Shown: one piece after another, positions 1,382-37,570 of the stretch
Layout: each line of letters starts with the position of its first letter
Numbering within the stretch: position 1 is the stretch's first letter
Virus record (IMG/VR): IMGVR_UViG_2718218135_000004
Strand: one strand, 5' to 3'
From: a virus
Taxonomy: Duplodnaviria; Heunggongvirae; Uroviricota; Caudoviricetes
DNA: 37,570 nt
Notes under the pieces: model-generated
Seen by the model: only the letters and a program-made list of their open reading frames with translations
Told to the model about the DNA's origin: nothing
Database searches by the model: none
Position numbers and translations under genes: made by a program

Positions 1382-3067
1382 GTGAATATAAACGTCGCCG
1401 AATTGTTAAATGGGAATTACATTCTGTTATTATTTGTGGTCCTCGCGCTTGGGCTATGTCTCGGAAAGTTACGACTTGGTTCGATCCAACTGGGTAATTC
1501 CATTGGCGTTTTAGTCGTATCGCTGTTATTAGGCCAACAACATTTCAGCATTAACACCGATGCGCTTAATCTTGGCTTTATGCTGTTTATTTTCTGCGTC
1601 GGGGTCGAAGCCGGACCGAACTTTTTTTCCATTTTTTTTCGCGATGGGAAAAATTACCTAATGTTAGCACTGGTGATGGTTGGCAGTGCGCTGGTGATCG
1701 CCTTAGGGTTAGGTAAGCTGTTTGGCTGGGATATTGGCCTGACGGCCGGTATGTTAGCAGGCTCTATGACGTCGACACCGGTTCTGGTCGGTGCTGGCGA
1801 TACACTGCGTCATTCCGGCATGGAAAGCAGGCAGCTCTCACTGGCACTGGATAATCTGAGCCTCGGGTATGCCTTAACCTATTTAATCGGTCTGGTGAGT
1901 TTGATTGTTGGTGCGCGTTACTTGCCGAAATTGCAGCATCAGGACTTACAGACCAGCGCCCAGCAAATCGCCCGCGAACGTGGCCTGGACACTGATGCCA
2001 ACCGTAAGGTTTATTTACCGGTGATCCGCGCCTATCGCGTCGGCCCGGAGCTGGTGGCCTGGACCGACGGCAAAAATCTGCGTGAACTGGGTATTTATCG
2101 ACAAACCGGCTGCTACATTGAACGTATTCGACGTAACGGGATTCTGGCAAATCCAGACGGTGATGCCGTGCTACAAATGGGCGATGAAATAGCGTTGGTA
2201 GGCTATCCCGACGCCCATGCCCGACTCGATCCCAGCTTCCGTAACGGTAAAGAAGTTTTCGATCGTGACCTTCTCGACATGCGTATCGTCACTGAAGAAG
2301 TGGTCGTTAAAAACCATAACGCTGTAGGTAAACGTCTCGCACAACTGAAGTTGACCGATCACGGTTGCTTCCTTAACCGCGTCATTCGTAGCCAGATTGA
2401 GATGCCGATAGATGACAACGTCGTGCTTAACAAAGGTGACGTTTTACAAGTCAGCGGTGATGCCCGTCGCGTAAAAACCATCGCCGATCGCATCGGCTTT
2501 ATCTCGATTCACAGCCAGGTCACTGACCTGCTGGCATTTTGCGCCTTCTTTGTTATTGGGCTGATGATCGGGATGATCACCTTCCAGTTCAGCACATTCA
2601 GTTTCGGCATGGGGAACGCTGCCGGGTTGTTATTCGCCGGAATTATGCTGGGCTTTATGCGTGCTAACCACCCGACCTTCGGTTACATTCCGCAAGGTGC
2701 ATTAAGCATGGTGAAAGAGTTCGGCTTGATGGTGTTTATGGCAGGCGTTGGTCTGAGCGCCGGTAGCGGTATTAATAACGGCCTGGGCGCGATTGGCGGT
2801 CAGATGTTGATTGCCGGATTAATTGTCAGTCTTGTGCCCGTGGTTATCTGTTTCTTGTTCGGTGCTTATGTATTGCGAATGAACCGCGCACTGTTGTTCG
2901 GCGCAATGATGGGCGCACGCACCTGCGCGCCGGCAATGGAGATCATCAGTGATACAGCTCGCAGTAACATCCCTGCGCTGGGCTATGCGGGCACCTACGC
3001 AATCGCCAACGTCCTGCTGACGCTGGCAGGGACAATCATCGTCATGGTATGGCCAGGATTAGGATAA
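1382..3067 (+). CDS. ybjL: putative AAE-family transporter YbjL (561 aa)
   Basis: 561-aa ORF from GTG 1382; N- and C-terminal TM blocks flanking a soluble central region; T7/T8 homopolymers at 1621-1645 read through in frame. Confidence 0.85.
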
Positions 3068-5194: not shown

Positions 5195-8100
5195 GCGTCG
5201 TATCCCCCCTGATCGCTGTAGTTACTCCTGGCTTTTGCCTTCAGCCTGCGTTCACGTTCATCAAGCTGACGTGCCACCTCCCGCGCAATATCCTGCGCAC
5301 TTTGTCCTGGCTGCGTCTGAATGATGATCTGCATCGGTGCCTCAATCCGCTGAACGGGCGGCACAGTGGCTGCACGACTCACCATCGCTTCGTCGCCTTT
5401 CGCGGGAAGTGCCAAAGGGTGCAACGGTGGAAACTCTGCTGGCGCGGCAGCAACGCCCATCATTCCGGCAACAACGGCAGCCAGTGCAGCTGTATTTCTC
5501 CGGCTGGTCACATTTGCCGGGCCGTTAACAATTTCCGGCCCGTTTTCACCGACGATGCCAAACTGCCCGCGCGGGATATACCCGCCGCTGTCATACATCC
5601 CCGCAAAGCCATATCCCCATGACGGAAAACCACCCGATGGCATCATCACTTTACCGTCTGCATTCACCGTCGCAGGTTGCTGACGCGTCACGCTTTCCGG
5701 CAGTTTCGCCTTTGCAGCTTCTTTACTGACAATGCCGAGTTTATCCAGCAACCAGGAAACACCGGATTTCAGGGAGTCCAGCGGATGCATGACCATATTC
5801 AGCCCTTCCGCCAGTGCCTCCCCGAATCGTCGCCCCATTGCCGCTGCGCTCTGCAGTTCGGCAGAGGTCGACTTAACAGGCGTCAGCAGATTAGTAAACC
5901 AGCCCCACAGCGCCTGTACTTTGTCGCCAATCCACTGAAACACAGGCTTAAGTGGTTCGAATGCAGCACTGATGGGACCTGCCGCCGCTTTGAATCCTTC
6001 CACCACGCCACCGAGAAATGCGGTGATGGGTTGCCAGTATTTCCAGACAACCAGCGCCACGCCTGCCAGTGCAGTAACCACAAGACCTATCGGACTGAGC
6101 AGAGCACCTAACAGACCAGATATGGCATACAGGGCAACGCGCAGCATCGCCAGCGGACCGGATGCCAGCACACGAAGCACCGTGCCTGCGGAGGCCAGTC
6201 CACCGCGCAGTACCGCCAGAGGATTCATAAACATCACAGCAACAGCACGTAAACCGGATAATCCAGACCGCAAAAGTGCAACCGGCGCACCTGCTACAGT
6301 TTTCAGGACATTTCCCGTCAGTGATGCCGTGCGGCGCAAAGACGACAACGGCGCAGTAAGTAAACCTGCGGCGTTGCCCGATGAAGCAAGCCCGCGTCGC
6401 AGCAGTGCAAGTGGTGCGCCAGCCAACCAGGACAACGCGCTGCTGGTTCGCGTTACTGCTGCCGTAACGGAAGGTAACGTTTTGATACCCAGCACAGAGA
6501 ATCCCAGACGGATGACTGCCAGCGGCCCCAGCACAGCAGCCAACACCACAGCCAGGGTGCCGAGGCCCACAGTAACAGCAGCCACAACCGCGGCTACTTT
6601 CATCAGTGTGCCCGTCAGTTCAGGGTTAGCTTCCACCCAGCGACGCAACGCCCCCGTGATGCTTTTCACCGTGTACAGAATATCCATCAGCGGCTGGCGC
6701 AGCGTTTCGCCCAGGCTGCTGAAGGTGTTCTGCGCTCCGGTTTTGACCAGCAACCACTGCGCAGAAAGTGAGTCCTTGTTAATGTCGGATTCTTTCTGCA
6801 TCGAACCGAGCGCATCATTGCCCGCTGTCAGTTTTAGCTGGCGCTGCAGTTCCGGCAGGTTGTTTGCCAGTTTCGCCGCATCATCGCCAAACTCTTTACC
6901 AAACAACATGGTCATGGCAGACAGGCGCTTATCCTGCGGCAGTGCGTTCACCTTCTCCAGTACGCGCTGGATAGTTCCCATCGCATCCTTCGTCATCTGC
7001 TTTTCAATCACTTCAGGATTGAGTTTCAGCAGATTCATTCCTTCAAAGAAACTCTTGCTTTGCATGGTCGCAATGGACAATTCACGCACCATCGCGTTGG
7101 CAGCACTGGCAGCGACCTCCGGCGCAGCCCCCAGTGTCAGGAAGGTGGAACCCAGCGCCGCCGCTTTACGATAATCCAGACGATCAGCCACACCGCCCAG
7201 GCGTTGCATGACATCAATGATGTCTGCCCCTTTCGACATAGCGTTATCATCCAGATAGTTCAGCGCATCACCGAGCTGTTCAATATTGCGGGTTGGTATT
7301 TTGTAGAGCTGGGCGATTTTCCCCAGACTTTCTGACAGTTCATCCGCTGGCAGCTCAAAGGCTGTTGCCGCCTTTGCTGCCGTACTGGCGAAGGCCAGCA
7401 GGTCACGTTTCTGGTCCTCCCAGCTGTCGTCAGGGTTTGCCACATTCATGCGCGCACCACCTTCAACCAGTGCGGCGAAGTCCACAGCACCGTTTTCCAT
7501 TGGCAGCTGTTCACTGGCAGCTTTGATGGCATCCTGCATTTCGTAAAAACGCGCAGTGCGGTTGCCATTATCGTCACGCAGACCATTGACCTGCTTTGCC
7601 ACACCTTTCATGGCATCTTCCATGCTGGTATAGCTTTTTACCGCCGCCATCACTGGCGCGCCCATTGCCAGCCCTGCAGCCGTGGTGGTGGCTCCGGCTC
7701 CTGCGATGCGATCGCGCACTTCAAGCCGTCTTGAGTATTGTTCTCTGGCAGCGTTCATCCGTGCCTGTTGTTCACCCAGACGTTTAAGTGCTTTTTGCTG
7801 GCCCTCCAGTGCCTGACGAGTTTCTTCGGCATTTTTCTTAAGTTCTCGCTGGGCACTACTGAGTTGTCTGGTATCAATCCCTGATTCTTTAAGTGCCTGA
7901 CGTTGTCTCTGGACCGCCCCCAACAAGCCGTTATAGGTCTGCTGAAGTTCCTGTACTCGTGTTTTGGCCTGACTGAATAACTTTGCCTGCGCGGCGGTTG
8001 GCCTGTTAGTGGCAGCAAATTGTGTGGCGAGTTTTGCCGCCTCTTCGCGGGCTGCGTTCAGGTTGTTGGCTGTTATGGCTAGTTGCGAGCGCGTCTTGCG

Positions 8101-10591: not shown

Positions 10592-11158
10592 TCAGGGAGA
10601 TTTATTGTTCTTATTTGCCGGAAATTTTCGATAAATGGTAGAAACGCCTACATCAAAAATCAGTGCAATACGCTGTCTTGATTCTCCGGCCTCGAGTAAA
10701 CGCCCAATCTGTGCCCACTGTTCGCTGGTCAACTTAGGACGGCGTCCACCTACTCTGCCTTTAGCACGAGCTGCAGCCAGCCCCGCCCTGGTACGTTCAA
10801 CTATCAGTTCGCGTTCCATTTCAGCCAGGGCACCCATGACATGAAAAAAGAAACGGCCCATTGGGGTGCTGGTATCAATACTGTCAGTCAGGCTTCGGAA
10901 ATTCACGCCACGCTGGCGCAGCTCTTCTATCAGCGTAACAAGATGCCGCATACTGCGCCCCAGTCTGTCCAGCTTCCAGACAACCAGCGTGTCTCCTGCC
11001 GATAGTGTCCTGAGCAGCTTTTTCAGCCCCGGTCTGTCGGACTTGGTGCCACTGATTTTATCCTCAAAAATCCGCTCACATCCCGCACAGTTCAGTGCAT
11101 TGCGTTGCAAATCGGTGTTCTGGTCATTTGTTGACACGCGTACATAGCCAATAAGCAT
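10592..11158 (-). CDS. pin: serine DNA invertase (Hin/Gin/Cin/Pin family)
   Basis: MLIGYVRVSTNDQNTDLQ N-terminus with catalytic Ser, resolvase core, C-terminal HTH (VSTIYRKF); recalled close similarity to e14 Pin. Confidence 0.9.
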   Translation of the reverse strand: MLIGYVRVSTNDQNTDLQRNALNCAGCERIFEDKISGTKSDRPGLKKLLRTLSAGDTLVVWKLDRLGRSMRHLVTLIEELRQRGVNFRSLTDSIDTSTPMGRFFFHVMGALAEMERELIVERTRAGLAAARAKGRVGGRRPKLTSEQWAQIGRLLEAGESRQRIALIFDVGVSTIYRKFPANKNNKSP

Positions 11159-11213
11159 GATCATCCCCCTGAATAAAAACCGGAGATGATGCCAGTTAGC
11201 CGTTATCTCTGCA

Positions 11214-11239
11214 TTTTCATAAACGTTGGTTTGGGAGAA
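11214..11239 (-). repeat. 26-bp invertase crossover site (left inverted repeat)
   Basis: Reverse complement TTCTCCCAAACCAACGTTTATGAAAA; first 14 nt identical to the site at 13111-13136; two 12-bp half-sites around central AA. Confidence 0.8.
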
Positions 11240-11578
11240 GCGGCTAAAAGGAATGTAGGGACAGGGGCGAATCAGATACCTGATATGGGTAGCTTCACGC
11301 TTTCTGTTTCAGGTACTGGATATCAAAAATTACCATCAGGTTTTATTCTTCAGTGGGGCTCAATCGGCGCACCAGGCATTGCACAGGATGTAGTAACCCA
11401 TTTTCCGATTGCATTTCCAAACAGATGTCTGCGTGTTTTGGTCTCACAAGACTACACACCAGATAGCGGGGCTGTTGGTTATATTGCCTGCGCAGGTTTT
11501 AGTGCCGACCCGGTTAAATTTATATCCAGAGCCAGTACTCCTGGCCTCGGCGCTTCATTTTTAGCGTTAGGCTGTTAA
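11240..11578 (+). CDS. alternative tail-fibre C-terminal segment (Sv'-like; promoterless, expressed only after inversion)
   Basis: Frame runs through the crossover site encoding ..NVGLGE|AAKRN..; after inversion it fuses in frame to the H constant region ending ..TYLGLGE. Confidence 0.7.
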
Positions 11579-11599
11579 TTTAGCTATATGGAGTGAAAA

Positions 11600-12040
11600 A
11601 TGAATTACATATATTCCGCGACTACAAACTCTTTCTATCCGCTGGAGATGAAAGAGGATTACACTCAAGCTGACTCATGGCCAGATGATGCTGTTGAAGT
11701 TGATGAGCAAGCGTATATTGAGTTTTCCGGATTACCGCCGAAAGGAAAAATCCGTATCGCTGGAGAAAATGGTTTTCCTGCATGGTCCGAAATTCCACCA
11801 CCAACACATGAGGAACAAATTGCTGCAGCCGAATTGGAGAAGCAGCAATTGATTAATCAGGCCAACGATTATATGAACAGTAAACAATGGCCTGGTAAAG
11901 CGGCTATTGGTCGTCTGAAAGGTGACGAACTGGCGCAATATAATTTGTGGCTGGATTACCTGGACGCACTGGAACTGGTCGATACTTCCGGTGCGCCAGA
12001 TATTGAATGGCCTACGCCTCCGGCAGTTCAGGCCAGATGA
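11600..12040 (+). CDS. alternative tail fibre assembly protein (Tfa/U'-like)
   Basis: 146-aa ORF following the Sv' segment; shares C-terminal motif (TSxAPDIxWPxxP) with the convergent Tfa at 12012-12614. Confidence 0.8.
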   Translation: MNYIYSATTNSFYPLEMKEDYTQADSWPDDAVEVDEQAYIEFSGLPPKGKIRIAGENGFPAWSEIPPPTHEEQIAAAELEKQQLINQANDYMNSKQWPGKAAIGRLKGDELAQYNLWLDYLDALELVDTSGAPDIEWPTPPAVQAR

Positions 12041-12614
12041 CATCCGGCGCGGTGCTGGTATCTGTTGCCGTCACCGCGTCAATGTAATCCAGCACAGCGT
12101 TAAGTCGGGTGGTTTCTGCCTGCGTCAGCTTCCGCCCGGCCTGCAATTTCAGTTGAATCAGACTGATGGAAGCCATTGCAGTATCAATCAGTGACTGACG
12201 CTGTGCTTCTGCCGCGTCTACTGCGGCGCGATGCTGTGCCTCAGTATCGGTCACCCATTTCTCACCATCCCATTTATCGAATGGCGTTAACGGGGCGATA
12301 GTGGTTGTATTTTCAGGGTAATCACCCGGAGCTGTGATTTCTTTTGATTCTCCTGTTTCAGTGCTATATACCGTTTCACCACGGTGGTCTGGCACATATA
12401 CCCATGAGTTAAAATCTGCAGAACGGCAGATTGCATAACCAGCTTTATATGAGTCAGGAGCATCTAAACAGGAGCATGCCGGAATGCCGACACCCACAGC
12501 AAGATATTCAGTTGATGTGAAAATATATTCCCGTGTTTCACCATCATAGTTATAAACAGTAATATTTCCTGCCTGGGTGGCGATAAATTCGTTATTTAAT
12601 ACGGCGTAATCCAT
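12012..12614 (-). CDS. G: tail fibre assembly protein (gpG/Tfa-like)
   Basis: 200-aa ORF; start overlaps H stop (TAATG); C-terminal TSTAPDVIWPELP motif. Confidence 0.85.
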   Translation of the reverse strand: MDYAVLNNEFIATQAGNITVYNYDGETREYIFTSTEYLAVGVGIPACSCLDAPDSYKAGYAICRSADFNSWVYVPDHRGETVYSTETGESKEITAPGDYPENTTTIAPLTPFDKWDGEKWVTDTEAQHRAAVDAAEAQRQSLIDTAMASISLIQLKLQAGRKLTQAETTRLNAVLDYIDAVTATDTSTAPDVIWPELPEA

Positions 12615-14173
12615 TATGCAGCCCTCACGATATACGCAAATGCCAGGTTCCGTGGTCTGGTTTCTTTAATTAAAGAGGAGGCATCAGGTGAACTCACTGA
12701 TTCAGCACCATTTCTTCCACCAGTGGTATAAGTAAAAACTCTTTCACTGTTAGACCAGTAATCCACACCAACTGTTTTTGCTGATGAAAAAATGGTTTCA
12801 TCAGATATAACCTGTTCTATTCCATACGGGATATTAGTAACTGACCCCACTTTTGTAGGTATTCCATGATTATGAGAAATTACTGCATGCTCTTGATTCG
12901 TTAATAAAGTACGACCGCTATCCACTCCACGCCCGTCATCCCAGCCACGAATAAACTCACCACGTAAATCAGGCAATTTATTTGTCGGATAAGCCTTTGC
13001 CAGTTCCGGGTATTCTTCAGCAGAAAAAGCGGCACCGTTGCATTTCAGCCAGCCTGTTGGCGGAGTGGCGGAAGGCCACGGAACAGGCACGCCAACGGGT
13101 AATGCCGAACCTTCTCCCAAACCAAGGTATGTGAGAAGACCTGCTACATCCTTTCCACTCAAATTAGTCAGCGTATTGTCCAGCGGTTGTTTACCTGCCA
13201 GCGCATTAAGCATTGTCGTGGCAAAGTTCGGATCATTCCCCAGTGCCGCCGCCAGTTCGTTCAGTGTATCCAGTGCCTCAGGTGCAGAACCCACCATTGC
13301 TGCAATCGCCGATTTCACAAAAGCCGTAGTGGCAATCTGTGTATTGTTGACCGACTGCGCCGCCGTGGGGGCTGTTGGCGTTCCGGTGAGTGCAGGACTC
13401 GACAGCGGCGCTTTCAGTGCCAGCGCATTGTTAATGGTGGTACTGAATTTCGGATCATTGTTAATGGCTACGGCTATTTCTTTCAGCGTGTCCAGCGTGG
13501 CTGGCGCACCATTAATAAGAGCCGTCAGTGCCGCCTGAACAAATGCGGTGGTCGCAAGCTGCGTGGTATTATTCCCCGCCGCTGGCGTTGGCGCTTTGGG
13601 AGTTCCGGTAAACGTCGGACTTTCTTTGGGTGCATACTGTGAATGCGGGTCCGGTGCGGCAAGATGTTTTGCCATCAGGTCATCCACGTACACCTTCAAC
13701 TCCAGTGCTTTGTCATCCACATACTTGCGGGTTGCCAGCACTACGGCAGGGTCGATTTTCAGGGTGATATTGTCCGTGCTGCTGGTAATCAGCACCATGC
13801 GCACGGTCTGGGTACGCCCGCTGCCTTCAGCCAGTTGCGGCTTATAGCTTTCCGGGCAGTTTCCCACGGCAATCAATGCCCCGGACTCATCAAACAGGCC
13901 CACTTCACGTATCCACCAACCGCCCTCGTTTTCAGGGATCACCTGTTCAGCAATAATCTGGCTGCTATTCTGCGGGTCGATATAAAGCATATTCAGCGCA
14001 GCCCGGCGTTTCTCATTTACCAGTGCCGTCTGCTTTGCGTCCGGCGTTGGCAATACTCCGCCGCCATCGCCCACCGCCATATGGGTAATTTTTAGCGGCA
14101 CACCGAGCGCGGCGGCGCTGGCAAGTTTCGCCGCGCCAATATCCGTCAGCAGGGTATAAAATTTTGTGCTCAT
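12614..14173 (-). CDS. H: tail fibre protein gpH-like (constant N-terminal part plus currently fused variable C-terminus)
   Basis: 519-aa ORF with repeated TTAFV..ALxxLxxAL blocks; crossover site embedded at codons TYLGLGE. Confidence 0.9.
   Translation of the reverse strand: MSTKFYTLLTDIGAAKLASAAALGVPLKITHMAVGDGGGVLPTPDAKQTALVNEKRRAALNMLYIDPQNSSQIIAEQVIPENEGGWWIREVGLFDESGALIAVGNCPESYKPQLAEGSGRTQTVRMVLITSSTDNITLKIDPAVVLATRKYVDDKALELKVYVDDLMAKHLAAPDPHSQYAPKESPTFTGTPKAPTPAAGNNTTQLATTAFVQAALTALINGAPATLDTLKEIAVAINNDPKFSTTINNALALKAPLSSPALTGTPTAPTAAQSVNNTQIATTAFVKSAIAAMVGSAPEALDTLNELAAALGNDPNFATTMLNALAGKQPLDNTLTNLSGKDVAGLLTYLGLGEGSALPVGVPVPWPSATPPTGWLKCNGAAFSAEEYPELAKAYPTNKLPDLRGEFIRGWDDGRGVDSGRTLLTNQEHAVISHNHGIPTKVGSVTNIPYGIEQVISDETIFSSAKTVGVDYWSNSERVFTYTTGGRNGAESVSSPDASSLIKETRPRNLAFAYIVRAA
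13111..13136 (+). repeat. 26-bp invertase crossover site (right inverted repeat, inside H)
   Basis: TTCTCCCAAACCAAGGTATGTGAGAA; internal dyad of 12-bp half-sites around central AA; encodes LGLGE in the H frame. Confidence 0.8.
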
Positions 14174-15676: not shown

Positions 15677-16022
15677 TCTCTGCTCCTGTTGATACGGAAA
15701 GGGAAACAGGCACACCGTTATTATGCCGCCCGGTCAGCTCCACCACCATTGAACCGTCAAAATTGCTGTTGATGGTGATGGAATCCAGCGTCAGCCGTGG
15801 CTCCCAGCGACTCAGCGCCACATACACTGCCGACATGACCTGCAGGCGTAATGCCGGATTTTGTGGCTGGTCTATCAGTGTCGACAACAGGGAACCATAT
15901 TCCCGACGGGCAATGCGGCTACCCTGCGGTGTCAGTAGAATGTCCCGCACCGACTGACGCAGATGGTCAATATCAGTAATGGCTTTACCGCTGGTATTGT
16001 TCATCCCGCTATAAAGCGTCAT
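15663..16022 (-). CDS. W: baseplate wedge protein gpW-like (gp25 family)
   Basis: 119-aa ORF, recalled similarity to P2 gpW (..GSR..RRxYGSLL..). Confidence 0.85.
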   Translation of the reverse strand: MTLYSGMNNTSGKAITDIDHLRQSVRDILLTPQGSRIARREYGSLLSTLIDQPQNPALRLQVMSAVYVALSRWEPRLTLDSITINSNFDGSMVVELTGRHNNGVPVSLSVSTGAENGSD

Positions 16023-16597
16023 ACCGGACCTCCAGTCGTGTCGCCGCCTTTCAGGACGCCAGTATGCTGATGCGCATCAACCACGATCCCGTTAGAACTC
16101 ATCGCTCCGCCACCCTGGGTAACGCCACCATTGATCACCACTTCGCTGTTAATGCGCGTGCGGTCAGCCTCCAGTACAAACTCACTGGTTTTCATGGTGA
16201 TGTTGTCAGCGGCCTCAATGACCATTGATTTGATGCCCCTGACATACCAGCTCCCGGTGGCGGGTTCGTATTCAAACCAGCCACCGTCAGGATGTTCTGT
16301 CACGCAGGCGTCCGCCGACGTCGACGGTGGTGCGAACTGATTCGAATAGACAGCGGGCAGCGCAAAGGCAGTCTCCAGATTGCCTCCCAGACTCAGCAGC
16401 ACCACCTGCTCACCTTCCGATGGTTTCCACCATGTGCGGGCATTACCCGCGCGCAGCGTCAGCCAGCTGATCCAGTTGGTTTCAAGGTCGCCCGTTTTCA
16501 CCCGGCAAAGCCAGTTCTCCCGGTCCACTTCGGTAACTACACCTGTTCGGATCAGATTGGTGATAAGGCGCATGATTTCGGTTAATTGTGCGTTCAT
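16019..16597 (-). CDS. V: baseplate spike protein gpV-like
   Basis: Start chosen at MNAQLTEIMRL (16597); in-frame upstream ATGs at 16615 and 16663 make the exact start uncertain. Confidence 0.85.
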   Translation of the reverse strand: MNAQLTEIMRLITNLIRTGVVTEVDRENWLCRVKTGDLETNWISWLTLRAGNARTWWKPSEGEQVVLLSLGGNLETAFALPAVYSNQFAPPSTSADACVTEHPDGGWFEYEPATGSWYVRGIKSMVIEAADNITMKTSEFVLEADRTRINSEVVINGGVTQGGGAMSSNGIVVDAHQHTGVLKGGDTTGGPV

Positions 16598-16644
16598 ACC
16601 GTATATATTAAACATTTGAAATAATATCTTCCAAACGGCATAAT

Positions 16645-16662
16645 TGTACTGAGGATGACACA
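16645..16662 (-). promoter_or_regulatory. P2-type late promoter dyad (TGT-N12-ACA), probable P_V
   Basis: TGTACTGAGGATGACACA in the V/cargo intergenic region; overlaps a sigma70-like -35 (TTGTAC) facing the cargo ATPase gene. Confidence 0.55.
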
Positions 16663-16709
16663 AATGATTATAAATTTAAGTAGCTCAACTAATAATAAAG
16701 GATACATAG

Positions 16710-17913
16710 ATGTATAAAATTCAAAGCGTCACAATTAATGGCTTTTGGCAGCGATTAAACTGTTCCTGCTCATTTAATGATGATGTAAATATTATTATAG
16801 GCCGAAATGGCACGGGTAAAACAACCTTTATGAACCTTCTGCACTCAATATTATCCCTTGATTTGGACAGTATTAACAATGCTGATTTCAATAGTGCCGA
16901 AATAAAACTTAAAGATAAAAAAAAGACAAAAACAATCAAAGTCAAAAAACTTGAAAGCGAATTCGTTATTTAACACTGATGATAGAAGAATATCTCTTAG
17001 TTATAGACGTAGAGTGCATGATGAAACAGAAGAACTAAGAACAGAACTAGCAAAACTAGTCTCGCTTTCTTCTTTATCTGTTTACAGATTAAGAAATAGT
17101 GATGATTTTGAAGTTAAAGATAAATATGGCTCTCGTTTTATCAACCCTGTTGACTATAAGTTATCAGAATTAATACAGGAACTTACAAAATATCAACTTG
17201 AACTATCCCAGAAAGCCAGAGATATCGCATTAGAACTGCAAAAAGAGGTTCTGGCATCAATACTTTATAGCAAGGAAGATATGGAGAATCCTGCTTACAA
17301 CATTAACTTTAACAAAGAGGAAGAAAAACAAAACCTCCTTAATGCATACACACAGTTAAATGCTATTGATCAAAACATTCGTAAAAAAATCAGCTTTCAT
17401 GTTGAAACAATTAATAATACCATTTCGGAATTAAAGAATAAAAGTGAAAGTGGCTTTGATATTCGTTCGATCGAAGCATTGAGAAAAACACAAAAAATAA
17501 TCAAAATGTCATTAACTTCAAAAGAGAAAACATCAAAAATATTTTCTCCAATAGAACAATTCTTAAGCATACTAAGAAATTTTATCACCGATAAAGAATT
17601 TCATTTTCAATCGGGATTGTTAGTCATAAATAACACCTATGGGCCAATAGTTTTAGAAAGTTTATCTTCTGGTGAAAAACAACTGCTAATTTTATTCATT
17701 GAGACCCTCTTGCAAAGAGGGCAACAATATATTTTCCTAACTGATGAGCCTGAGCTTTCCTTACATATTCAATGGCAAAGAAATATTATCCCTGCCATAA
17801 AAAAATTAAATCCTAATGCACAAATTATTGCTGCAACCCATTCTCCTGAAGTTGCATCTAAATATAAAAACGCCATTTTCAATATGGAGAGATTAGTCAA
17901 TGCTAATCAATGA
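16710..17913 (+). pseudogene. ABC-type ATPase (AAA_15/21-like, AriA/OLD-ATPase-like), split by a +1 frameshift at an A8 tract (16917-16924)
   Basis: Walker A GRNGTGKTT in the 87-aa N-terminal ORF; SSGEKQ, Walker B YIFLTDEPELSLH and ATHSPE in the 320-aa C-terminal ORF; the two ORFs overlap 16951-16973 in different frames. Confidence 0.7.
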
Positions 17914-18756
17914 TTCTAATGCAGAAAACTTTTCTTGGTCTAATGAAGCGGAAAATGTGATCAGTTTATTTTATGATGCTGATATTATGGTCTATGTTGA
18001 AGGTGAAGATGACATTGCTTTTTGGGAAATAATTTTTAAAAAAATGGTCGTTTTAATGTAGAAGTTCAAGATGTTGGTGGATGTGAAGCTTTACAACCAT
18101 ATATCGAAAAAATAACCTCAGGAGAAATAAACGCTATAGTTGCCAGAGATTCGGATCTAAACCATTTTTCTGACAACATAGTAAAGCATACAAATATTAT
18201 TTACACAAAGGGATATTCAATAGAAAACACAATCATTGATGAAAAAATCATATCACACATACTCAAAAACACAGGCCGTTTTTGCACGAAAAAAATGCAG
18301 GAAATAGATGTGGAAAATTGGCTTTCTAATTTCTATAGCAACATTGAGAACTTAATAATACTAGATATTCACAATCATTTAAATAAATTAGGATGCTCCG
18401 TAATTGGTGATTCCTGTGATCGTTTTATGCAATCAAGAAATTCATACAATATATGCAAGGAAAAAATAGATGAATATATCAATAGACTACCTGAATCGTT
18501 TACTACTAATGGTTTAGCAGAAAAAAACAACATTCAATTCCCAGAAAATACATCTATAAATCATTGGGTGAAAGGGCACTTTCTTTTCTCAGCATCATTA
18601 AGATTTATAACAAACTTTTTGGCATCCATCAATAAAAAAACCTCTATATCCAAGGATAGTTTTTACGCAAACATCTTGTCTGCATTTGAGATTTTTTATA
18701 CAGAAGAACATGCTGATTATAGTTATTACAATCAAAAGATAGGGGCCATCACATAA
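17900..18756 (+). pseudogene. Toprim-like (OLD/DUF4435-type, AriB-like) protein, split by a frameshift at an A7 tract (18038-18044)
   Basis: ATG 17900 overlaps the ATPase stop by 14 nt; frame 2 reads ..VYVEGEDDIAFWEIIFKK then stops at 18059-61; frame 1 is open from 18040 to 18756 (..AIVARDSD..GYSIEN..). Confidence 0.65.
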
Positions 18757-18785
18757 AAAAATAAAGGCTGGCTTTTATGCCAGCC
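18757..18785 (-). terminator. hairpin terminator between convergent cargo operon and gene S
   Basis: GGCTGGC-TTTTAT-GCCAGCC (18766-18785) with a U-run on the minus strand (plus A-run 18755-18765). Confidence 0.55.
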
Positions 18786-19233
18786 AATCCCCAGAAAATA
18801 AATTCATAATGAATATTTTTCGAATTAATTTTTCACATCCATTTAATCCAAGCAATTTTCTCTCTGCGTAACGGATCTCAGGTCCTTTGCGGCTGACGCG
18901 ATCACGTAGGCCGTAATGGTGAACGCGGGCAATGCGCTGTACCTTACCTTCAAACTGTACGCTGGCAGTATCCGCGCTGGCGGCAGTTTTCAGGTATTTT
19001 GTAGTGCGCAGCTTTGTAAACATCTGACGTTTGATCCGCCCCTTTTTACTGCGTGCTGTTACCCGTCGCGGTTCATAGCTGCTGCCGTCAGGGTTGCGCT
19101 GCATCCTGATATTATGCTGCTGTGTCCGGCGCAGTTCCTGCGACAGCTGGCGCATCATGCGGCTTCTTGCGGCTGGTTCTAGATTCGCCAGCAAGGCACT
19201 CAGCCAGTCGTCCACCTTCTGCAGTTCAGCCAC
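18775..19233 (-). CDS. S: tail completion protein gpS-like
   Basis: 152-aa ORF following R, P2 order. Confidence 0.85.
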   Translation of the reverse strand: MAELQKVDDWLSALLANLEPAARSRMMRQLSQELRRTQQHNIRMQRNPDGSSYEPRRVTARSKKGRIKRQMFTKLRTTKYLKTAASADTASVQFEGKVQRIARVHHYGLRDRVSRKGPEIRYAERKLLGLNGCEKLIRKIFIMNLFSGDWLA

Positions 19234-27549: not shown

Positions 27550-27577
27550 AAGTTAGCGAATAAAAATCATTAGCATA

Positions 27578-27596
27578 GGCCGCAAACTGAGCGGCC
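27578..27596. terminator. hairpin between convergent Q and hotspot operon
   Basis: GGCCGC-AAACTGA-GCGGCC followed by TTATT. Confidence 0.5.
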
Positions 27597-27603
27597 TTAT
27601 TCA

Positions 27604-27873
27604 TTACCAATTTCTTTTTTCGGAGTTTAGCCAATCACCGCATGGATAATATCTTGACGCCCATTCACCTTGTAAACGAGCTACAAACAGAATATCGTTA
27701 CTATCGACCCTGGCTTGGAGTCCGTCACGCAGTTGAGTTGCGGTCAGCGTTGTATCTACTAACCAAAATGATTCAAGATATTTACAGTATGTAAATTGCT
27801 TTAGATAGTCAAAAACTTCATCGTAGTTTCTTCCCGGAGCCTTCAAGTCATAGGTTATACAATAAATAGCCAT
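27604..27873 (-). CDS. hypothetical 89-aa protein (hotspot cargo)
   Basis: ORF with GGAG RBS that overlaps the stop of the upstream Zn-ribbon gene; no family recognised from sequence. Confidence 0.55.
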   Translation of the reverse strand: MAIYCITYDLKAPGRNYDEVFDYLKQFTYCKYLESFWLVDTTLTATQLRDGLQARVDSNDILFVARLQGEWASRYYPCGDWLNSEKRNW

Positions 27874-27876
27874 TCT

Positions 27877-28059
27877 CTAAGCTCCGCATTTTTTATCATT
27901 TGGGGAACATCTTAACCTGCGACATTTGCGGCAATACGATTGAGGGATCAGCCGCTCTCCTTCCATAGTTCTAAAACCAAACACTTCTTCAATTTTGTTC
28001 AAATCACCACTTGCAATAACCCCACAGCAGGGGCAGACAGCCTCAATTTGAAATGCCAT
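27877..28059 (-). CDS. small Zn-ribbon protein (about 60 aa; CPCC...CRKC)
   Basis: Start chosen at ATG 28059 with GGAG RBS; ORF-track TTG start 28122 is less likely; Cys pattern C-x-C-C ... C-x-x-C. Confidence 0.5.
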   Translation of the reverse strand: MAFQIEAVCPCCGVIASGDLNKIEEVFGFRTMEGERLIPQSYCRKCRRLRCSPNDKKCGA

Positions 28060-28699
28060 GTCTATCTCCATTCCACATGTTGAATGTAGGGTAATACTTC
28101 CTTTCAAGCAAAAATGAGACAAGGATCTTGAAACCTAATTTAAACTTGCTTGCGCGCGCTCGTATCCCCGCCACGCCTGCCCGCTTTATGTAGTAGTTTT
28201 CATGCACCTGCATGACATGAGCAAAAGCCCGCCAGTTCTGGCATGTCTTAGCCAAACCGATCCTCAAACGATCATGCGAACTCATGCAGCATAGACATGC
28301 ATGACATGAAAATCGGTCAAACCTTGAAACCAGTCATAAATATGAGCCAGCTTAATACACACTAAATAGCTGCGTCTAATACTGCTACACCTGCCGTTTA
28401 CTGACATGTGGCATGTCGCGTAAGGACAACATACTGTAGGCCAGATACAGCAGGATCAGGCGAAGAAAACGGCCCCACGCCTTACCCAGCAAGGGCCAAG
28501 GGCTAACCGAAAGTGGAGCATTATTCCGCGCAGTTATTTAGTGTCAGCTCTTTTGAGCTAAAATCAAGTTTCAACATGAGGGTCTGTGCAGGCTTTCTCA
28601 TCCCGCTAATTTATACAGCACACCTATATGGCTATGAGTTTGTCATGCCCGCTAATCCTGTTAGGATTAGCCTTGTTTTTTTACGATTGGGATAGGGAT

Positions 28700-29506
28700 A
28701 TGAAGAAATTAACTGGCGTAATTGCTTTTGCTCTGCTGCTTACTGCTTGTGACAAACCGAAGATCGATGCATCAAGCGATCAGTCGATGAAAGAGTCCAT
28801 TCAAAAAGTAAGAGAGTCCTTACCTGCAGATAAAAAAGCTCAGTTTGATGATGCAGTTAAAGTCGTTGCCTTTAGCCAAATCAACATGAGAGAGCTAATG
28901 CAGGCTGGAACGTCTTCTGGGGACGTCTACGAAACAAAAATTAAGTCAGCGTTGGAAGGTAAAACTGGTGATGAGGTTATAAATTACGCACAAACTATTC
29001 GCCTTGAGCGTGAGAAGAGAGAGAAAGAACAGGCTCTGCAAGAAATAAAAGAACTGGAAGCCAAACAAACCTCTGCAACACAGGCTGCGGAAAAAATGAA
29101 AGCCTTCAAGGTCGAACGTTCCCGTTTTTATTTCCAGAAAGAGGATTACGGCAATGATCAGCCAATTCTGGATATTAGCGTTGAAAACGGAACAGACAAA
29201 GCGGTTGCCAGAGTATTCTTCAAAGGAGTTATTGCCAGCCCAGGAAGAAGCGTCCCTTGGTTCTCTGACGTCTTCAACTATAAAATTTCTGGAGGTCTGG
29301 AACCAGGTGAGAAAGCCAACTGGAAATTAGCCCCTAATAGATACTCTGATTGGGGAAAACTTAAAGTTCCGGCTGATGCTATATTTACCGTCACAGTCAT
29401 TGGCCTTGAAGACGCAGATGGGAAATCGATCTATGGTGACGCCGAGTTTTCAGAACGCGATGCTGACAGACTGAATCAACTTAGAGATAAGTACCTTTCT
29501 AAATAA
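28700..29506 (+). CDS. lipoprotein (268 aa) with coiled-coil segment
   Basis: MKKLTGVIAFALLLTAC signal peptide plus lipobox; ORF-track start 28628 is an upstream extension. Confidence 0.7.
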   Translation: MKKLTGVIAFALLLTACDKPKIDASSDQSMKESIQKVRESLPADKKAQFDDAVKVVAFSQINMRELMQAGTSSGDVYETKIKSALEGKTGDEVINYAQTIRLEREKREKEQALQEIKELEAKQTSATQAAEKMKAFKVERSRFYFQKEDYGNDQPILDISVENGTDKAVARVFFKGVIASPGRSVPWFSDVFNYKISGGLEPGEKANWKLAPNRYSDWGKLKVPADAIFTVTVIGLEDADGKSIYGDAEFSERDADRLNQLRDKYLSK

Positions 29507-29614
29507 TCAAAATTAAAGCTACTTCAGCATAGTCCCTGAGAATATATATCAGGGACTACCAAATCACGGCAGATACCCCTTAGTTAAATAATGCTAAACG
29601 CTTAGAAAGAGACC

Positions 29615-29914
29615 ATGAAACGTATAACTTTCTCCTTTACGTTAGTAGCAATCATCATAGCCTTAGCTGGATGTGCTTTGCCAGATAAAGACGGCGACTT
29701 CGGAGCTTATGTTCATGCCTGTCAGCAATATGCATACGGAAAATCCTATGCCTTTGAGAATAGAGACTTCGCGTATAAGGTCTGTAAGGACGCGGCGAAA
29801 CTGTGGAGTGAAGAAGTTCCTGGCTATATCATCAGGCAAATTCAACTACATCCTGAAATACCCAGCGAAGAAATTAAATATGCAGCCATGGCCGGCTCTT
29901 TGGGTAACAACTAA
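29615..29914 (+). CDS. small lipoprotein (99 aa)
   Basis: MKRITFSFTLVAIIIALAGC signal peptide plus lipobox. Confidence 0.7.
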   Translation: MKRITFSFTLVAIIIALAGCALPDKDGDFGAYVHACQQYAYGKSYAFENRDFAYKVCKDAAKLWSEEVPGYIIRQIQLHPEIPSEEIKYAAMAGSLGNN

Positions 29915-29927
29915 ATCAACTTATGAG

Positions 29928-29950
29928 AAAGGGGCTTAATGCCCCTTTTC
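29928..29950. terminator. rho-independent terminator between convergent lipoprotein gene and small ORF
   Basis: AAAGGGGC-TTAAT-GCCCCTTTT stem-loop. Confidence 0.65.
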
Positions 29951-29981
29951 GGTTCCCTTATCAAGTCCTAACGAAACAAGC

Positions 29982-30170
29982 TCAACTGATTACATCCATC
30001 GACCTACTGTATTCATGGCTTCGAATTTTCGCCATCAACTCATCAGTCAATTCAGAAACCCACTGCAGAGCTAGCCCCTTCTCTTCATCACTACACTCAC
30101 TAGCCGCTACAAGCTTAAGAAAAAAATCAATGCGCTGGAGCTTCAAAGACTCCAAAAAATAGTCCTGCAT
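29982..30170 (-). CDS. small helical protein (62 aa) downstream of tandem LexA boxes; candidate SOS-induced antirepressor (Tum-like position)
   Basis: ATG 30170 with AGGAGG RBS 4 nt upstream; ORF-track start 30272 would lie upstream of the LexA boxes. Confidence 0.55.
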   Translation of the reverse strand: MQDYFLESLKLQRIDFFLKLVAASECSDEEKGLALQWVSELTDELMAKIRSHEYSRSMDVIS

Positions 30171-30196
30171 CTTTCCTCCTATAACACCATACGCAA

Positions 30197-30231
30197 TACT
30201 GTACATATAAACACTGTTTATATTTACAGTA
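30197..30231 (-). promoter_or_regulatory. two overlapping LexA (SOS) boxes
   Basis: CTGT-ACATATAA-ACAC (30199-30214) and perfect CTGT-TTATATTT-ACAG (30214-30229), immediately upstream of the 62-aa ORF. Confidence 0.65.
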
Positions 30232-30323
30232 TATAATAATCTTACTGATGTAAAACGTTTTTTTACGTTCATCAGCCTGATATGCCTGGTATTATTAAGA
30301 GCACGAATTGTTAACCCGCGTGA

Positions 30324-36517: not shown

Positions 36518-37570
36518 ATGGCAGTACGAAAACTCACCACAGGGAAATGGCTTTGCGAATGTTACCCCGCCGGACGAAGTGGGCGTCGTGTGCGTAAACA
36601 ATTCGCCACCAAAGGCGAAGCTCTGGCTTTTGAGCGTCACACGATGGAAGAAACCGAATCAAAGCCCTGGCTGGGCGAATCAGTGGATCGTCGAACCCTG
36701 AAAGACGTGGTTGAGCTATGGTTCAAACTACATGGTAAATCTCTGACTGCTGGACAGCATGTCTATGACAAATTGCTGCTGATGGTTGACGCCCTAGGCA
36801 ATCCTCTTGCAACCGATCTCACCTCTAAAATGTTTGCCCACTATCGAGATAAACGCCTGACAGGCGAGATCTACTTCAGCGAGAAATGGAAGAAAGGAGC
36901 AAGCCCGGTCACCATTAACCTGGAGCAAAGCTATCTAAGTAGTGTTTTTAGCGAACTATCCCGTCTGGGCGAATGGTCGTATCCGAACCCACTGGAGAAC
37001 ATGCGAAAATTCACCATCGCAGAAAAAGAGATGGCATGGCTTACCCATGAGCAGATTGTTGAATTACTGGCTGATTGCAAACGTCAGGACCCAATTCTGG
37101 CTCTGGTAGTCAAGATATGCTTAAGCACAGGCGCACGCTGGCGAGAAGCCGTAAATCTTACCCGCTCACAGGTGACCAAATACCGAATTACCTTTGTAAG
37201 AACGAAGGGGAAGAAAAACAGAAGCATCCCTATCAGTAAAGAGCTTTACGAAGAGATCATGGCGCTTGATGGGTTCAATTTCTTCACAGACTGCTATTTT
37301 CAATTTTTATCCGTGATGGAAAAAACGTCTATCGTGCTCCCTCGCGGTCAACTGACACACGTTCTGCGCCATACTTTTGCGGCGCACTTCATGATGTCGG
37401 GTGGAAACATCCTGGCCTTACAAAAAATTCTCGGACACCACGATATAAAAATGACTATGCGTTACGCACATCTGGCACCGGATCATCTGGAAACGGCGCT
37501 CCGTTTCAATCCTCTGGCAACATTGCCAAGTGGCGACAAAGTGGCGGCAGCGGTTGGCATTACCCCGTAA
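36518..37570 (+). CDS. int: tyrosine integrase (P2/186 family)
   Basis: Catalytic R (ARWREA), HxxR (LRHTFAAH) and Y (RYAHL) motifs; start at MAVRKLTTG (36518); stop codon is the last triplet of the window. Confidence 0.9.
   Translation: MAVRKLTTGKWLCECYPAGRSGRRVRKQFATKGEALAFERHTMEETESKPWLGESVDRRTLKDVVELWFKLHGKSLTAGQHVYDKLLLMVDALGNPLATDLTSKMFAHYRDKRLTGEIYFSEKWKKGASPVTINLEQSYLSSVFSELSRLGEWSYPNPLENMRKFTIAEKEMAWLTHEQIVELLADCKRQDPILALVVKICLSTGARWREAVNLTRSQVTKYRITFVRTKGKKNRSIPISKELYEEIMALDGFNFFTDCYFQFLSVMEKTSIVLPRGQLTHVLRHTFAAHFMMSGGNILALQKILGHHDIKMTMRYAHLAPDHLETALRFNPLATLPSGDKVAAAVGITP

What the first reader, a model, noticed from the sequence alone, without database searches (positions are those of the whole stretch)
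18030..18062. Second homopolymer frameshift, in the Toprim-like partner gene (A7 tract)
The ORF starting at 17900 reads ..VEGEDDIAFWEIIFKK through an A7 run (18038-18044) and stops at TAG 18059-61. The neighbouring frame opens right after a TAA at 18037-39 and continues 239 codons to 18756. Adding one A joins them into one ~286-aa protein (..IIFKKNGRFNVEV..). Two independent poly-A indels in adjacent genes of one module suggest decay or phase-variable silencing of the system.
Basis: seen in the sequence. Interest (0 to 1): 0.6.

Follow-up and report, generated by a model that had tools for sequence, protein, structure and literature searches.

The report
Broken PARIS defence gene in prophage
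A one-base loss in a run of eight A's has broken the nuclease gene of a two-gene anti-phage defence module carried by a P2-like prophage, and the partner gene is broken by a separate 53-base deletion, so this is an ordinary, recently dead defence system and not a switch.

Summary
An A7 run (18038-18044) splits one gene into a 53-aa ORF (17900-18061) and an open frame running to 18756. Adding one A gives a 285-aa protein identical to an intact E. coli protein seen on about 470 contigs, and every intact relative examined has A8. The gene is a sequence-divergent AriB (DUF4435/Toprim) of a PARIS-type module (AriA ATPase + AriB). The module sits as AT-rich cargo in the orf30 slot, between genes S and V, of an otherwise intact P2-like prophage. 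The lesion in the neighbouring ATPase gene is not a poly-A indel: it is a 52-bp deletion plus a 1-nt T loss (16959-16967), which is irreversible. That excludes reversible phase-variable silencing for this copy. Decay is supported and is recent, because only two synonymous SNPs separate the repaired module from intact copies. The A7 allele also occurs in two other assemblies, one of them with an intact ariA, so it is probably real and may have preceded the ariA lesion. It is rare (3 sources against about 470 intact contigs). I found no sign of programmed frameshifting. A homopolymer sequencing error cannot be fully excluded. Novelty is low: this is a pseudogenised member of a known defence system.

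The parts
16616..16644 (+). Best sigma-70-like promoter match (TTGAAA-17-CATAAT) upstream of ariA
   Evidence: 10 of 12 matches, the best in the region. This is a consensus match only, and the region as a whole has no excess of such matches.
16710..16973 (+). ariA N-terminal remnant: an 87-aa ORF, native through Ser83 (includes Walker A GRNGTGKT), then EFVI and a stop
   Evidence: RefSeq names this product WP_249531180.1, seen on one 4.74-Mb contig.
16959..16967 (+). ariA lesion: a 52-bp deletion at 16959/16960 plus loss of one T (T3 to T2, 16966-16967). Net -53 nt, removing Asp84-Arg103 and shifting the frame. The junction reads GAATTC.
   Evidence: Restoring 52 bp + T (+ the A in ariB) makes the module identical to EC596 apart from 2 synonymous SNPs.
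16966..17913 (+). ariA C-terminal remainder in the other frame, from Leu104 of the intact 418-aa protein to the stop. Contains the ABC signature LSSGEKQ and Walker B FLTDEPE.
   Evidence: AAA_15 80.7 bits, AAA_21 78 bits on an approximate one-base repair of ariA, which is not the true 418-aa sequence; PADLOC AriA 2e-39; best PDB hit AriA 8ux9/8v45, E=1.5e-20.
17900..18061 (+). ariB N-terminal ORF: 53 aa, of which 48 are native (including the Toprim Glu34, Asp37 and Asp38) followed by MVVLM and a stop. The start overlaps the ariA stop by 14 nt.
   Evidence: RefSeq names this product WP_249531178.1.
18038..18044 (+). The A7 tract. It is A8 (AAA AAA AAT = Lys47 Lys48 Asn49) in all intact copies examined.
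18040..18756 (+). Rest of ariB in the -1 frame (native Asn49-Thr285 begin at 18043). Carries the invariant D84xD86, E109-N110 and G226-H227-F228 motifs. The first possible start codon in this frame is the ATG at 18295.
18766..18785 (-). GC-rich hairpin with a T-tail on the - strand, just after the S-like gene. It corresponds in position to the O-operon terminator annotated in P2.
   Evidence: P2 annotation.
16019..16663 (-). P2 gpV-like baseplate gene, the left border of the cargo slot
18775..19233 (-). P2 gpS-like tail-completion (virion morphogenesis) gene, the right border of the cargo slot

Best explanation
Positions 16600-18770 are a 30%-GC cargo island in the orf30 slot (between late genes S and V) of an otherwise intact P2-like prophage integrated between ybjL and rcdA of an E. 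coli-type chromosome. The island carries a PARIS-type two-gene anti-phage module: ariA (ABC ATPase sensor) and ariB (DUF4435/Toprim effector). By analogy with characterised PARIS, an intact module would hold AriB inactive on an AriA hexamer and release it to cut tRNAs when a phage trigger protein is sensed. Here both genes are dead. ariB lost one A from its A8 tract, most likely by replication slippage at the longest homopolymer in the gene. That truncates the protein after helix alpha1 and separates the catalytic Glu34 from the D84xD86, E109 and GHF motifs. ariA lost 52 bp plus one T. Shown: the lesions, the identity of the genes, the intact state of relatives, and the recency of the damage. 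Inferred: the PARIS-like mechanism of the intact module, slippage as the cause, and the order of events (ariB possibly first, because one other isolate has A7 with an intact ariA).
For: Lesions and repair. Restoring 52 bp + T + A gives a module identical to intact EC596 apart from 2 synonymous SNPs. Intact relatives: an A8 tract with a 418-aa + 285-aa gene pair in EC596 and 2014C-3075 and in two IMG/VR contigs; the exact intact proteins occur on 470 and 478 contigs. One gene, not two: 180 homologues of 275-289 aa, with an ungapped alignment across the junction and invariant E34/D37/D38, D84/D86, E109/N110 and G226/H227/F228. Family: DUF4435 95.5 bits; AAA_15 80.7 bits and AAA_21 78 bits (these two on an approximately repaired ariA), which passes the PARIS detection rule of Rousset 2022 (PMC9122126). 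PADLOC gives AriA 2e-39 and AriB 4e-22. AriA's best PDB hit is PARIS AriA, E=1.5e-20. The AF2 model of the intact AriB (pLDDT 92.6) best matches the AriB chains 8v46_D and 8ux9_A (prob 1.0, TM 0.52-0.55). Real rather than artefact: all of the roughly 45 conserved prophage genes are full length in a single frame. The other 14 of the 15 homopolymer runs of >=6 nt in the module agree with EC596. The same A7 allele is present in an independent E. coli draft (L004, ariA intact) and in a metagenome scaffold (L005). L004 is also the closest relative of the window's right flank (2 mismatches in 2.5 kb). Cargo slot: P2 itself has the nonessential orf30 there, TB4019 carries a different gene there, and a 72%-identical ariAB pair occupies the same slot in another P2-like prophage.
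Against: No reads are available, so a single-base homopolymer undercall in the window's assembly cannot be excluded. Systematic long-read errors could in principle recur at the same A8 in different assemblies. AriB is only 13-16% identical to the solved AriB, and no sequence or profile search reached it in the PDB. The tRNA-cleaving, Ocr-triggered mechanism is therefore extrapolated, not shown. The order of the two lesions rests on one related isolate, and the flanks are mosaic.
Confidence: 0.8

Rival explanations
1. Sequencing or assembly artefact: the true sequence has A8 and ariB is intact in the source strain. The A7 is a homopolymer undercall.
For: The change is a 1-nt deletion in one of the two longest homopolymers of the module, which is the classic error site. 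About 99% of public copies have A8.
Against: The equally long A8 at 16917-24 and all the other long runs agree with relatives. No other gene in 35 kb of prophage is frameshifted. The adjacent ariA carries a 52-bp deletion that cannot be a homopolymer error, so a dead module is expected to collect such lesions. The same A7 is seen in two other independent assemblies, one of which is the closest relative of the window's right flank.
Confidence: 0.1
2. Phase variation: the A8/A7 tract is a contingency switch that reversibly turns a costly abortive-infection effector on and off in the population.
For: The tract is the commonest site of ariB null alleles: A7 in 3 sources and A6 in 1, against three other distinct frameshifts with one source each. 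ariA's own A8 also has an A9 null allele (P0028). AAA AAA AAT is retained down to 64% protein identity.
Against: OFF alleles make up roughly 1% of copies, with none among 2 IMG/VR contigs or 2 complete genomes. KK is not conserved in the wider family, and the tract is broken in Serratia (AGA AAA). Retention of AAA/AAT is what a 31-33% GC gene would show anyway. In this window the second lesion is an irreversible deletion. From general knowledge, an A8 tract in mismatch-repair-proficient E. coli mutates far more slowly than classical contingency tracts.
Confidence: 0.05
3. Recoding or leaky rescue: the A7 allele still makes some full-length AriB, either by -1 ribosomal slippage of tRNA-Lys on U-AAA-AAA or by RNA polymerase adding an A. 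On this reading it is a hypomorph and not a null.
For: A -1 slip after the second AAA yields a product identical to intact AriB. C-AAA-AAA supports -1 frameshifting in E. coli without known stimulators (PMC1851650). Poly-A transcriptional slippage rescues interrupted genes elsewhere (PMC4256274).
Against: All homologues are in frame, so the out-of-frame arrangement is not conserved. There is no downstream structure (z=-0.06) and no Shine-Dalgarno-like element upstream. Efficient transcriptional slippage is generally associated with runs of about 9 or more (PMC1088944; A11). Single tRNA-Lys slips run at 0.3-1%. In this window ariA is destroyed, and AriB without AriA gives no defence (PMC11464382).
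Confidence: 0.04

Closest known systems
PARIS (AriA/AriB) of E. coli B185 (Rousset et al. 2022; structures 8ux9, 8v45-8v49)
   Same: Both are a two-gene cassette of an ABC ATPase (AAA_15/AAA_21) followed by a DUF4435/Toprim protein, carried by a P2/P4-family mobile element. AriA is the best PDB sequence match (E=1.5e-20) and AriB the best structural match (TM 0.52-0.55). The equivalent acidic Toprim residues are present: E34, D38, D84, D86 and E109 here, against E26, D30, D88, E90 and E122 there.
   Different: AriB is only 13-16% identical and is unreachable by sequence or profile search of the PDB. AriA is 418 aa against 464 aa, with only its ends aligning by sequence. The module sits in the S-V (orf30) slot of a P2-like phage, not in the P4 hotspot or the cos-proximal gpA-gpQ hotspot. 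Both genes are inactivated here. The trigger and the tRNA targets are unknown.
P2 orf30 and other morons in the S-V intergenic slot of P2-like phages
   Same: Same position, between the O-operon terminator after S and the pV promoter. Same orientation, opposite to the late genes. Both are AT-rich and nonessential.
   Different: The cargo here is a two-gene defence module and not the single orf30.
OLD-family nucleases (P2 Old; class 1/2 OLD; Gabija GajA)
   Same: The same combination of an ABC ATPase and a Toprim nuclease, used for phage exclusion.
   Different: In OLD and GajA the two domains are fused in one polypeptide. Fold matches to OLD Toprim regions are weak (TM about 0.25, prob 0.7-0.9).
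Poly-A-interrupted genes rescued by slippage (C. rodentium tssM1 A11; IS element 9A sites; pDEST17 C-AAA-AAA)
   Same: A frameshift sits at a lysine-coding A-run, and a -1 event would restore the native protein.
   Different: The tract is only A7. The out-of-frame arrangement is not conserved in homologues. There are no stimulators, and the in-frame A8 is the norm.

Membership tests
PARIS (AriA/AriB) | Adjacent genes scoring AAA_15 >=32 bits or AAA_21 >=27 bits, and DUF4435 >=27 bits (the detection rule of Rousset 2022, PMC9122126) | tested here: met
   AAA_15 80.7 bits and AAA_21 78 bits on an approximately repaired ariA, and DUF4435 95.5 bits on repaired ariB. The repaired ariB is identical to the intact allele in EC596. 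The genes overlap by 14 nt.
PARIS (AriA/AriB) | AriA-type ABC ATPase related to the characterised AriA | tested here: met
   the best PDB hits are AriA 8ux9_B/8v45_A, E=1.5e-20, ahead of retron/Septu PtuA ATPases (<=1e-8). PADLOC AriA 2.3e-39.
PARIS (AriA/AriB) | AriB Toprim fold with metal-binding acidic residues (E26, D30, D88, E90, E122 in B185 AriB; PMC11464382) | tested here: met
   The AF2 model (pLDDT 92.6) best matches AriB 8v46_D/8ux9_A (prob 1.0, TM 0.52-0.55). E34, D37/D38, D84, D86 and E109 are invariant in 52 homologues. Residue-by-residue equivalence was inferred from order and spacing, not from a superposition.
PARIS (AriA/AriB) | Detectable sequence similarity of AriB to the characterised AriB | tested here: inconclusive
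   There is no PDB hit with the single sequence or with a 36-sequence profile at E<=1. The PADLOC AriB-specific model PDLC04165 gives only E=3e-6. This is a divergent subfamily.
PARIS (AriA/AriB) | Both genes intact, as both are required for defence | tested here: not met
   In this window ariA carries a net 53-nt deletion and ariB an A8-to-A7 frameshift. The window holds a pseudogenised member.
PARIS (AriA/AriB) | Trigger-dependent release of AriB, tRNA cleavage and an abortive-infection phenotype | not testable with these tools
   This needs cloning of the intact allele (for example from EC596), phage challenge and tRNA sequencing.
Phase-variable contingency locus | Several tract lengths at appreciable frequency among closely related isolates | tested here: not met
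   The exact intact (A8) protein occurs on 470 contigs. A7 occurs in 3 sources and A6 in 1. IMG/VR holds A8 twice and A7 never.
Phase-variable contingency locus | Silencing that is reversible by tract change alone | tested here: not met
   The partner gene carries a 52-bp deletion plus a 1-nt T loss, so restoring A8 would not restore the system.
Programmed frameshift (recoding) site | Out-of-frame arrangement conserved among homologues, with stimulatory elements | tested here: not met
   All 180 homologues are single in-frame ORFs. Downstream RNA folding gives z=-0.06. No Shine-Dalgarno-like motif lies upstream.
OLD-family nuclease | ATPase and Toprim domains fused in one polypeptide | tested here: not met
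   The genes are separate in all relatives examined. Fold similarity to OLD Toprim regions is weak.

The most novel reading that the evidence does not exclude
The lysine-coding A8 tract of this ariB lineage is a functional slippage-prone site. On this reading, A8-to-A7 changes, together with trace -1 decoding on U-AAA-AAA that recreates the exact native protein, let a phage-borne abortive-infection nuclease be turned down or switched off and on at the population level. L004-type alleles (ariA intact, ariB A7) would then be a hypomorphic or standby state and not dead genes. The window would be a copy that later lost ariA for good.
Probability: 0.05. Interest if true: 0.5.

Novelty: already known. 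Interest (0 to 1): 0.15.

Why it matters
The scientific weight is small. This is a clean, datable example of a prophage-borne defence module (PARIS type) being lost while the prophage that carries it stays intact, and the longest homopolymer is the commonest place where ariB breaks. It has some practical value. RefSeq names the fragments as ordinary proteins (an 87-aa 'AAA family ATPase' and a 53-aa 'DUF4435 domain-containing protein'), so defence-system censuses could miscount this locus. It also shows that the S-V (orf30) slot of P2-like phages carries PARIS-type cargo, in addition to the cos-proximal hotspot described by Rousset et al. 2022. The intact allele (EC596; WP_001580543.1 and WP_001580542.1) is a sequence-divergent AriAB pair that could be worth testing for its trigger and tRNA specificity.

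Tried and rejected
(1) The claimed poly-A indel in the ATPase gene was rejected. My own first repair, removing one A from the A8 at 16917-24, gave an open frame but the wrong protein. Alignment to intact relatives shows that the A8 is native and the lesion is a 52-bp deletion plus a 1-nt T loss.
(2) Sequence searches of the PDB with AriB, both single sequence and profile, found nothing. Only fold comparison linked it to the solved AriB.
(3) The 153-aa C-terminal 'fragment' on a 104-kb NCBI contig looked like another disrupted allele but is a contig-end partial.
I therefore could not see whether the partner gene is intact in those strains.
(5) The phage-record collection holds only a 68%-identical relative, so it gave no tract information.
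(6) A single origin of A7 versus recurrent slippage could not be resolved. The module haplotypes differ by too few SNPs and the flanks are mosaic.
(7) An engineered deletion was considered, because the junction reads GAATTC. I judged this a coincidence: the native sequence already reads CAATTCG, and the deletion merely brings a G next to it.

Full report
OBSERVATION. The sequence is as described. An A7 run lies at 18038-18044 with T on both sides. ORF 17900-18061 reads ...VEGEDDIAFWEIIFKK, then MVVLM, and stops at TAG 18059-61. The neighbouring frame is open from just after TAA 18037-39 to the stop at 18754-56. Adding one A fuses the two into a 285-aa protein with the junction IIFKK|NGRF. An A7 run by itself is unremarkable here. 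The module is 39% A and holds seven A>=7 runs, and the window holds 17 runs of >=7 nt. The finding is significant because of homology, not because of the tract.

WHAT THE GENE IS. The repaired protein matches Pfam DUF4435 (95.5 bits, E=5e-27) and PADLOC AriB (E=4e-22). The upstream gene matches AAA_15 and AAA_21 (80.7 and 78 bits, scored on an approximate one-base repair) and PADLOC AriA (E=2e-39). These scores, on adjacent genes, satisfy the rule by which Rousset et al. 2022 defined PARIS detection (PMC9122126). The ATPase's best match among solved structures is PARIS AriA (8ux9/8v45, E=1.5e-20). The partner protein has no PDB match by sequence or by a 36-sequence profile. However, an AlphaFold2 model of the intact protein (pLDDT 92.6, pTM 0.88) finds the AriB chains of the PARIS complexes as its two best structural matches: 8v46_D and 8ux9_A, prob 1.0, TM 0.52-0.55, 13-16% identity. 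OLD-family Toprim domains come far behind. I conclude that this is a sequence-divergent PARIS-type AriA/AriB pair. The mechanism known for the B185 system is that an AriA hexamer sequesters AriB, a phage trigger such as Ocr releases it, and it then cleaves tRNA-Lys(UUU) and other tRNAs (PMC11464382, PMC12409363). Applying that mechanism here is an inference.

ONE GENE, NOT TWO. A search of the large protein collection returned 180 homologues, essentially all 275-289 aa and covering 93-100% of the repaired protein. In alignments of 36 and 52 of them (35-71% identity) the region around the junction is ungapped. The invariant residues are E34, G35, D37 and D38; D84 and D86; E109 and N110; and G226, H227 and F228. 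The order and spacing of the acidic residues match the Toprim metal ligands E26, D30, D88, E90 and E122 of B185 AriB. The frameshift falls at residue 48/49, at the end of helix alpha1 (residues 37-49) of the beta1-alpha1-beta2-alpha2-beta3 core. The 53-aa product therefore keeps only the first acidic cluster. The downstream frame has no start codon before the ATG at 18295, so nothing carrying the DxD motif can be made by ordinary translation.

INTACT RELATIVES AND THE REAL NATURE OF THE TWO LESIONS. Only 2 of 5,426 complete E. coli genomes carry this module: EC596 (99.8% identical) and 2014C-3075 (99.3% identical). Both have an intact 418-aa ATPase and an intact 285-aa DUF4435 protein. Base-by-base alignment shows A8 in both where the window has A7. 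Its lesion is a 52-bp deletion at 16959/16960 plus loss of one T from a T3 run seven bases further on (16966-67). The net change is -53 nt. It removes Asp84-Arg103 and shifts the frame. Restoring 52 bp + T + A turns the window's module into the EC596 sequence apart from two substitutions, both synonymous: 17712 TTG/TTA (Leu) and 18135 GCT/GCC (Ala). The inactivation is therefore recent, and one of the lesions is irreversible.

ARTEFACT OR REAL? Several observations argue against a generally error-prone assembly. All of the roughly 45 prophage genes shared with the related prophage of strain TB4019 are full length in a single frame. The other 14 of the 15 homopolymer runs of >=6 nt in the module agree with EC596. 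A 52-bp deletion is not a homopolymer error. The exact 53-aa product is on record as RefSeq WP_249531178.1 on a 4.74-Mb contig. The same A7 allele is also present in two other sources. One is an E. coli draft assembly (L004, GCA_041140635.1), in which ariA is intact at 418 aa. The other is a metagenome scaffold (L005) with its own private SNP. L004 is a distinct mosaic prophage: its left flank differs from the window at 73 of 2,400 positions. Yet it is the closest relative of the window's right flank, with 2 mismatches in 2.5 kb. This suggests, without proving, that A7 is shared by descent and that ariB broke before ariA. I cannot inspect reads, so I leave about 10% for a homopolymer undercall.

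SWITCH, RECODING SITE OR PLAIN MUTATION? The exact intact proteins are on 470 (AriB) and 478 (AriA) contigs. A7 has three sources, and IMG/VR holds A8 twice and A7 never. Other rare null alleles exist. For ariB they are FKKWSF* (A6), AFGK* (T5 to T4), AFSGNNF* (a 1-nt insertion) and DADGLC* (a 5-bp deletion). For ariA there is an A8-to-A9 frameshift at its own tract. The A8 tract is thus the commonest breaking point, but OFF alleles make up about 1% of copies. The tract (AAA AAA AAT) persists in relatives at 72% and 64% protein identity and is broken in Serratia (AGA AAA AAT). In the wider family the Lys-Lys pair is not conserved. This is what codon bias in a 31-33% GC gene predicts. There is no RNA structure downstream of the tract (z=-0.06) and no Shine-Dalgarno-like element upstream. 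A -1 slip on U-AAA-AAA would recreate the native protein exactly, and C-AAA-AAA is known to be slippery in E. coli (PMC1851650). But single tRNA-Lys slips run at 0.3-1%, and efficient transcriptional slippage is associated with runs of about 9 or more (PMC1088944; A11 in PMC4256274). In any case AriB without AriA gives no defence (PMC11464382), and ariA is destroyed in this window. The plain reading, a loss-of-function slippage mutation in a decaying module, is by far the best supported.

CONTEXT. The module is a 30%-GC island (16600-18770) in a 52-62% GC P2-like prophage. It lies between the gpV-like gene (16019-16663, - strand) and the gpS-like gene (18775-19233, - strand) and is transcribed against the late genes. 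In P2 itself this gap holds the nonessential, opposite-strand orf30, between the O-operon terminator and the pV activator site. In TB4019 the same prophage at the same attachment site carries a different 253-aa gene there. A 72%-identical ariAB pair fills the same slot in another P2-like prophage. More distant pairs sit beside a MobA relaxase in Salmonella and between portal and gpA in Serratia. The P2 hotspot described by Rousset et al. is the cos-proximal gpA-gpQ gap, and their paper does not mention orf30. PARIS cargo in the S-V slot is therefore a small extension of that picture.

VERDICT. Interest is low.

Noticed in passing
window 16959-16967: The ariA lesion is compound: a 52-bp deletion plus loss of one T seven bases downstream, possibly a single repair event. 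The new junction happens to create an EcoRI site (GAATTC, 16959-16964).
   Followed up: yes
window 10595-13137: This looks like an invertible tail-fibre segment. A serine-recombinase-like gene (10595-11158, - strand) lies next to 27-nt inverted repeats at 11214-11240 and 13111-13137 (core TTCTCCCAAACC). The repeats flank alternative tail-fibre and tail-fibre-assembly genes in opposite orientations. If so, it is a genuine phase switch in the same prophage.
   Followed up: partly
window 27550-30320: The cos-proximal gpA-gpQ hotspot of this prophage holds only small ORFs and a DUF6694 lipoprotein gene. ORF 27604-27873 (- strand) has a weak Cas2b-like PADLOC hit (E=5e-4). The related prophage in TB4019 has three extra genes there, including a STAS-like one.
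   Followed up: partly
window 16710-16973 and 17900-18061: RefSeq gives the two N-terminal fragments ordinary protein accessions (WP_249531180.1 'AAA family ATPase', 87 aa; WP_249531178.1 'DUF4435 domain-containing protein', 53 aa) and does not flag them as pseudogenes.
   Followed up: yes
public protein clusters (P0003-P0006, P0028, P0039): Other independent null alleles of the same module exist in E. coli. For ariB: A6, T5 to T4, a 1-nt insertion and a 5-bp deletion. For ariA: an A8-to-A9 frameshift at the tract equivalent to window 16917-24, and a 299-aa C-terminal fragment on the 2014C haplotype. Their genomes could not be fetched.
   Followed up: partly
L001 (EC596) locus 6075-7998: In EC596 the prophage carrying the intact module is itself rearranged. 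lysC is followed directly by a truncated replication-endonuclease pseudogene, so there the defence module is intact and the phage is degraded, the opposite of the window.
   Followed up: no
window 1382-3064 and 36518-37567: The prophage lies between ybjL and the integrase end, next to rcdA in relatives. This is the same attachment site as in TB4019 and several hundred other E. coli genomes.
   Followed up: partly
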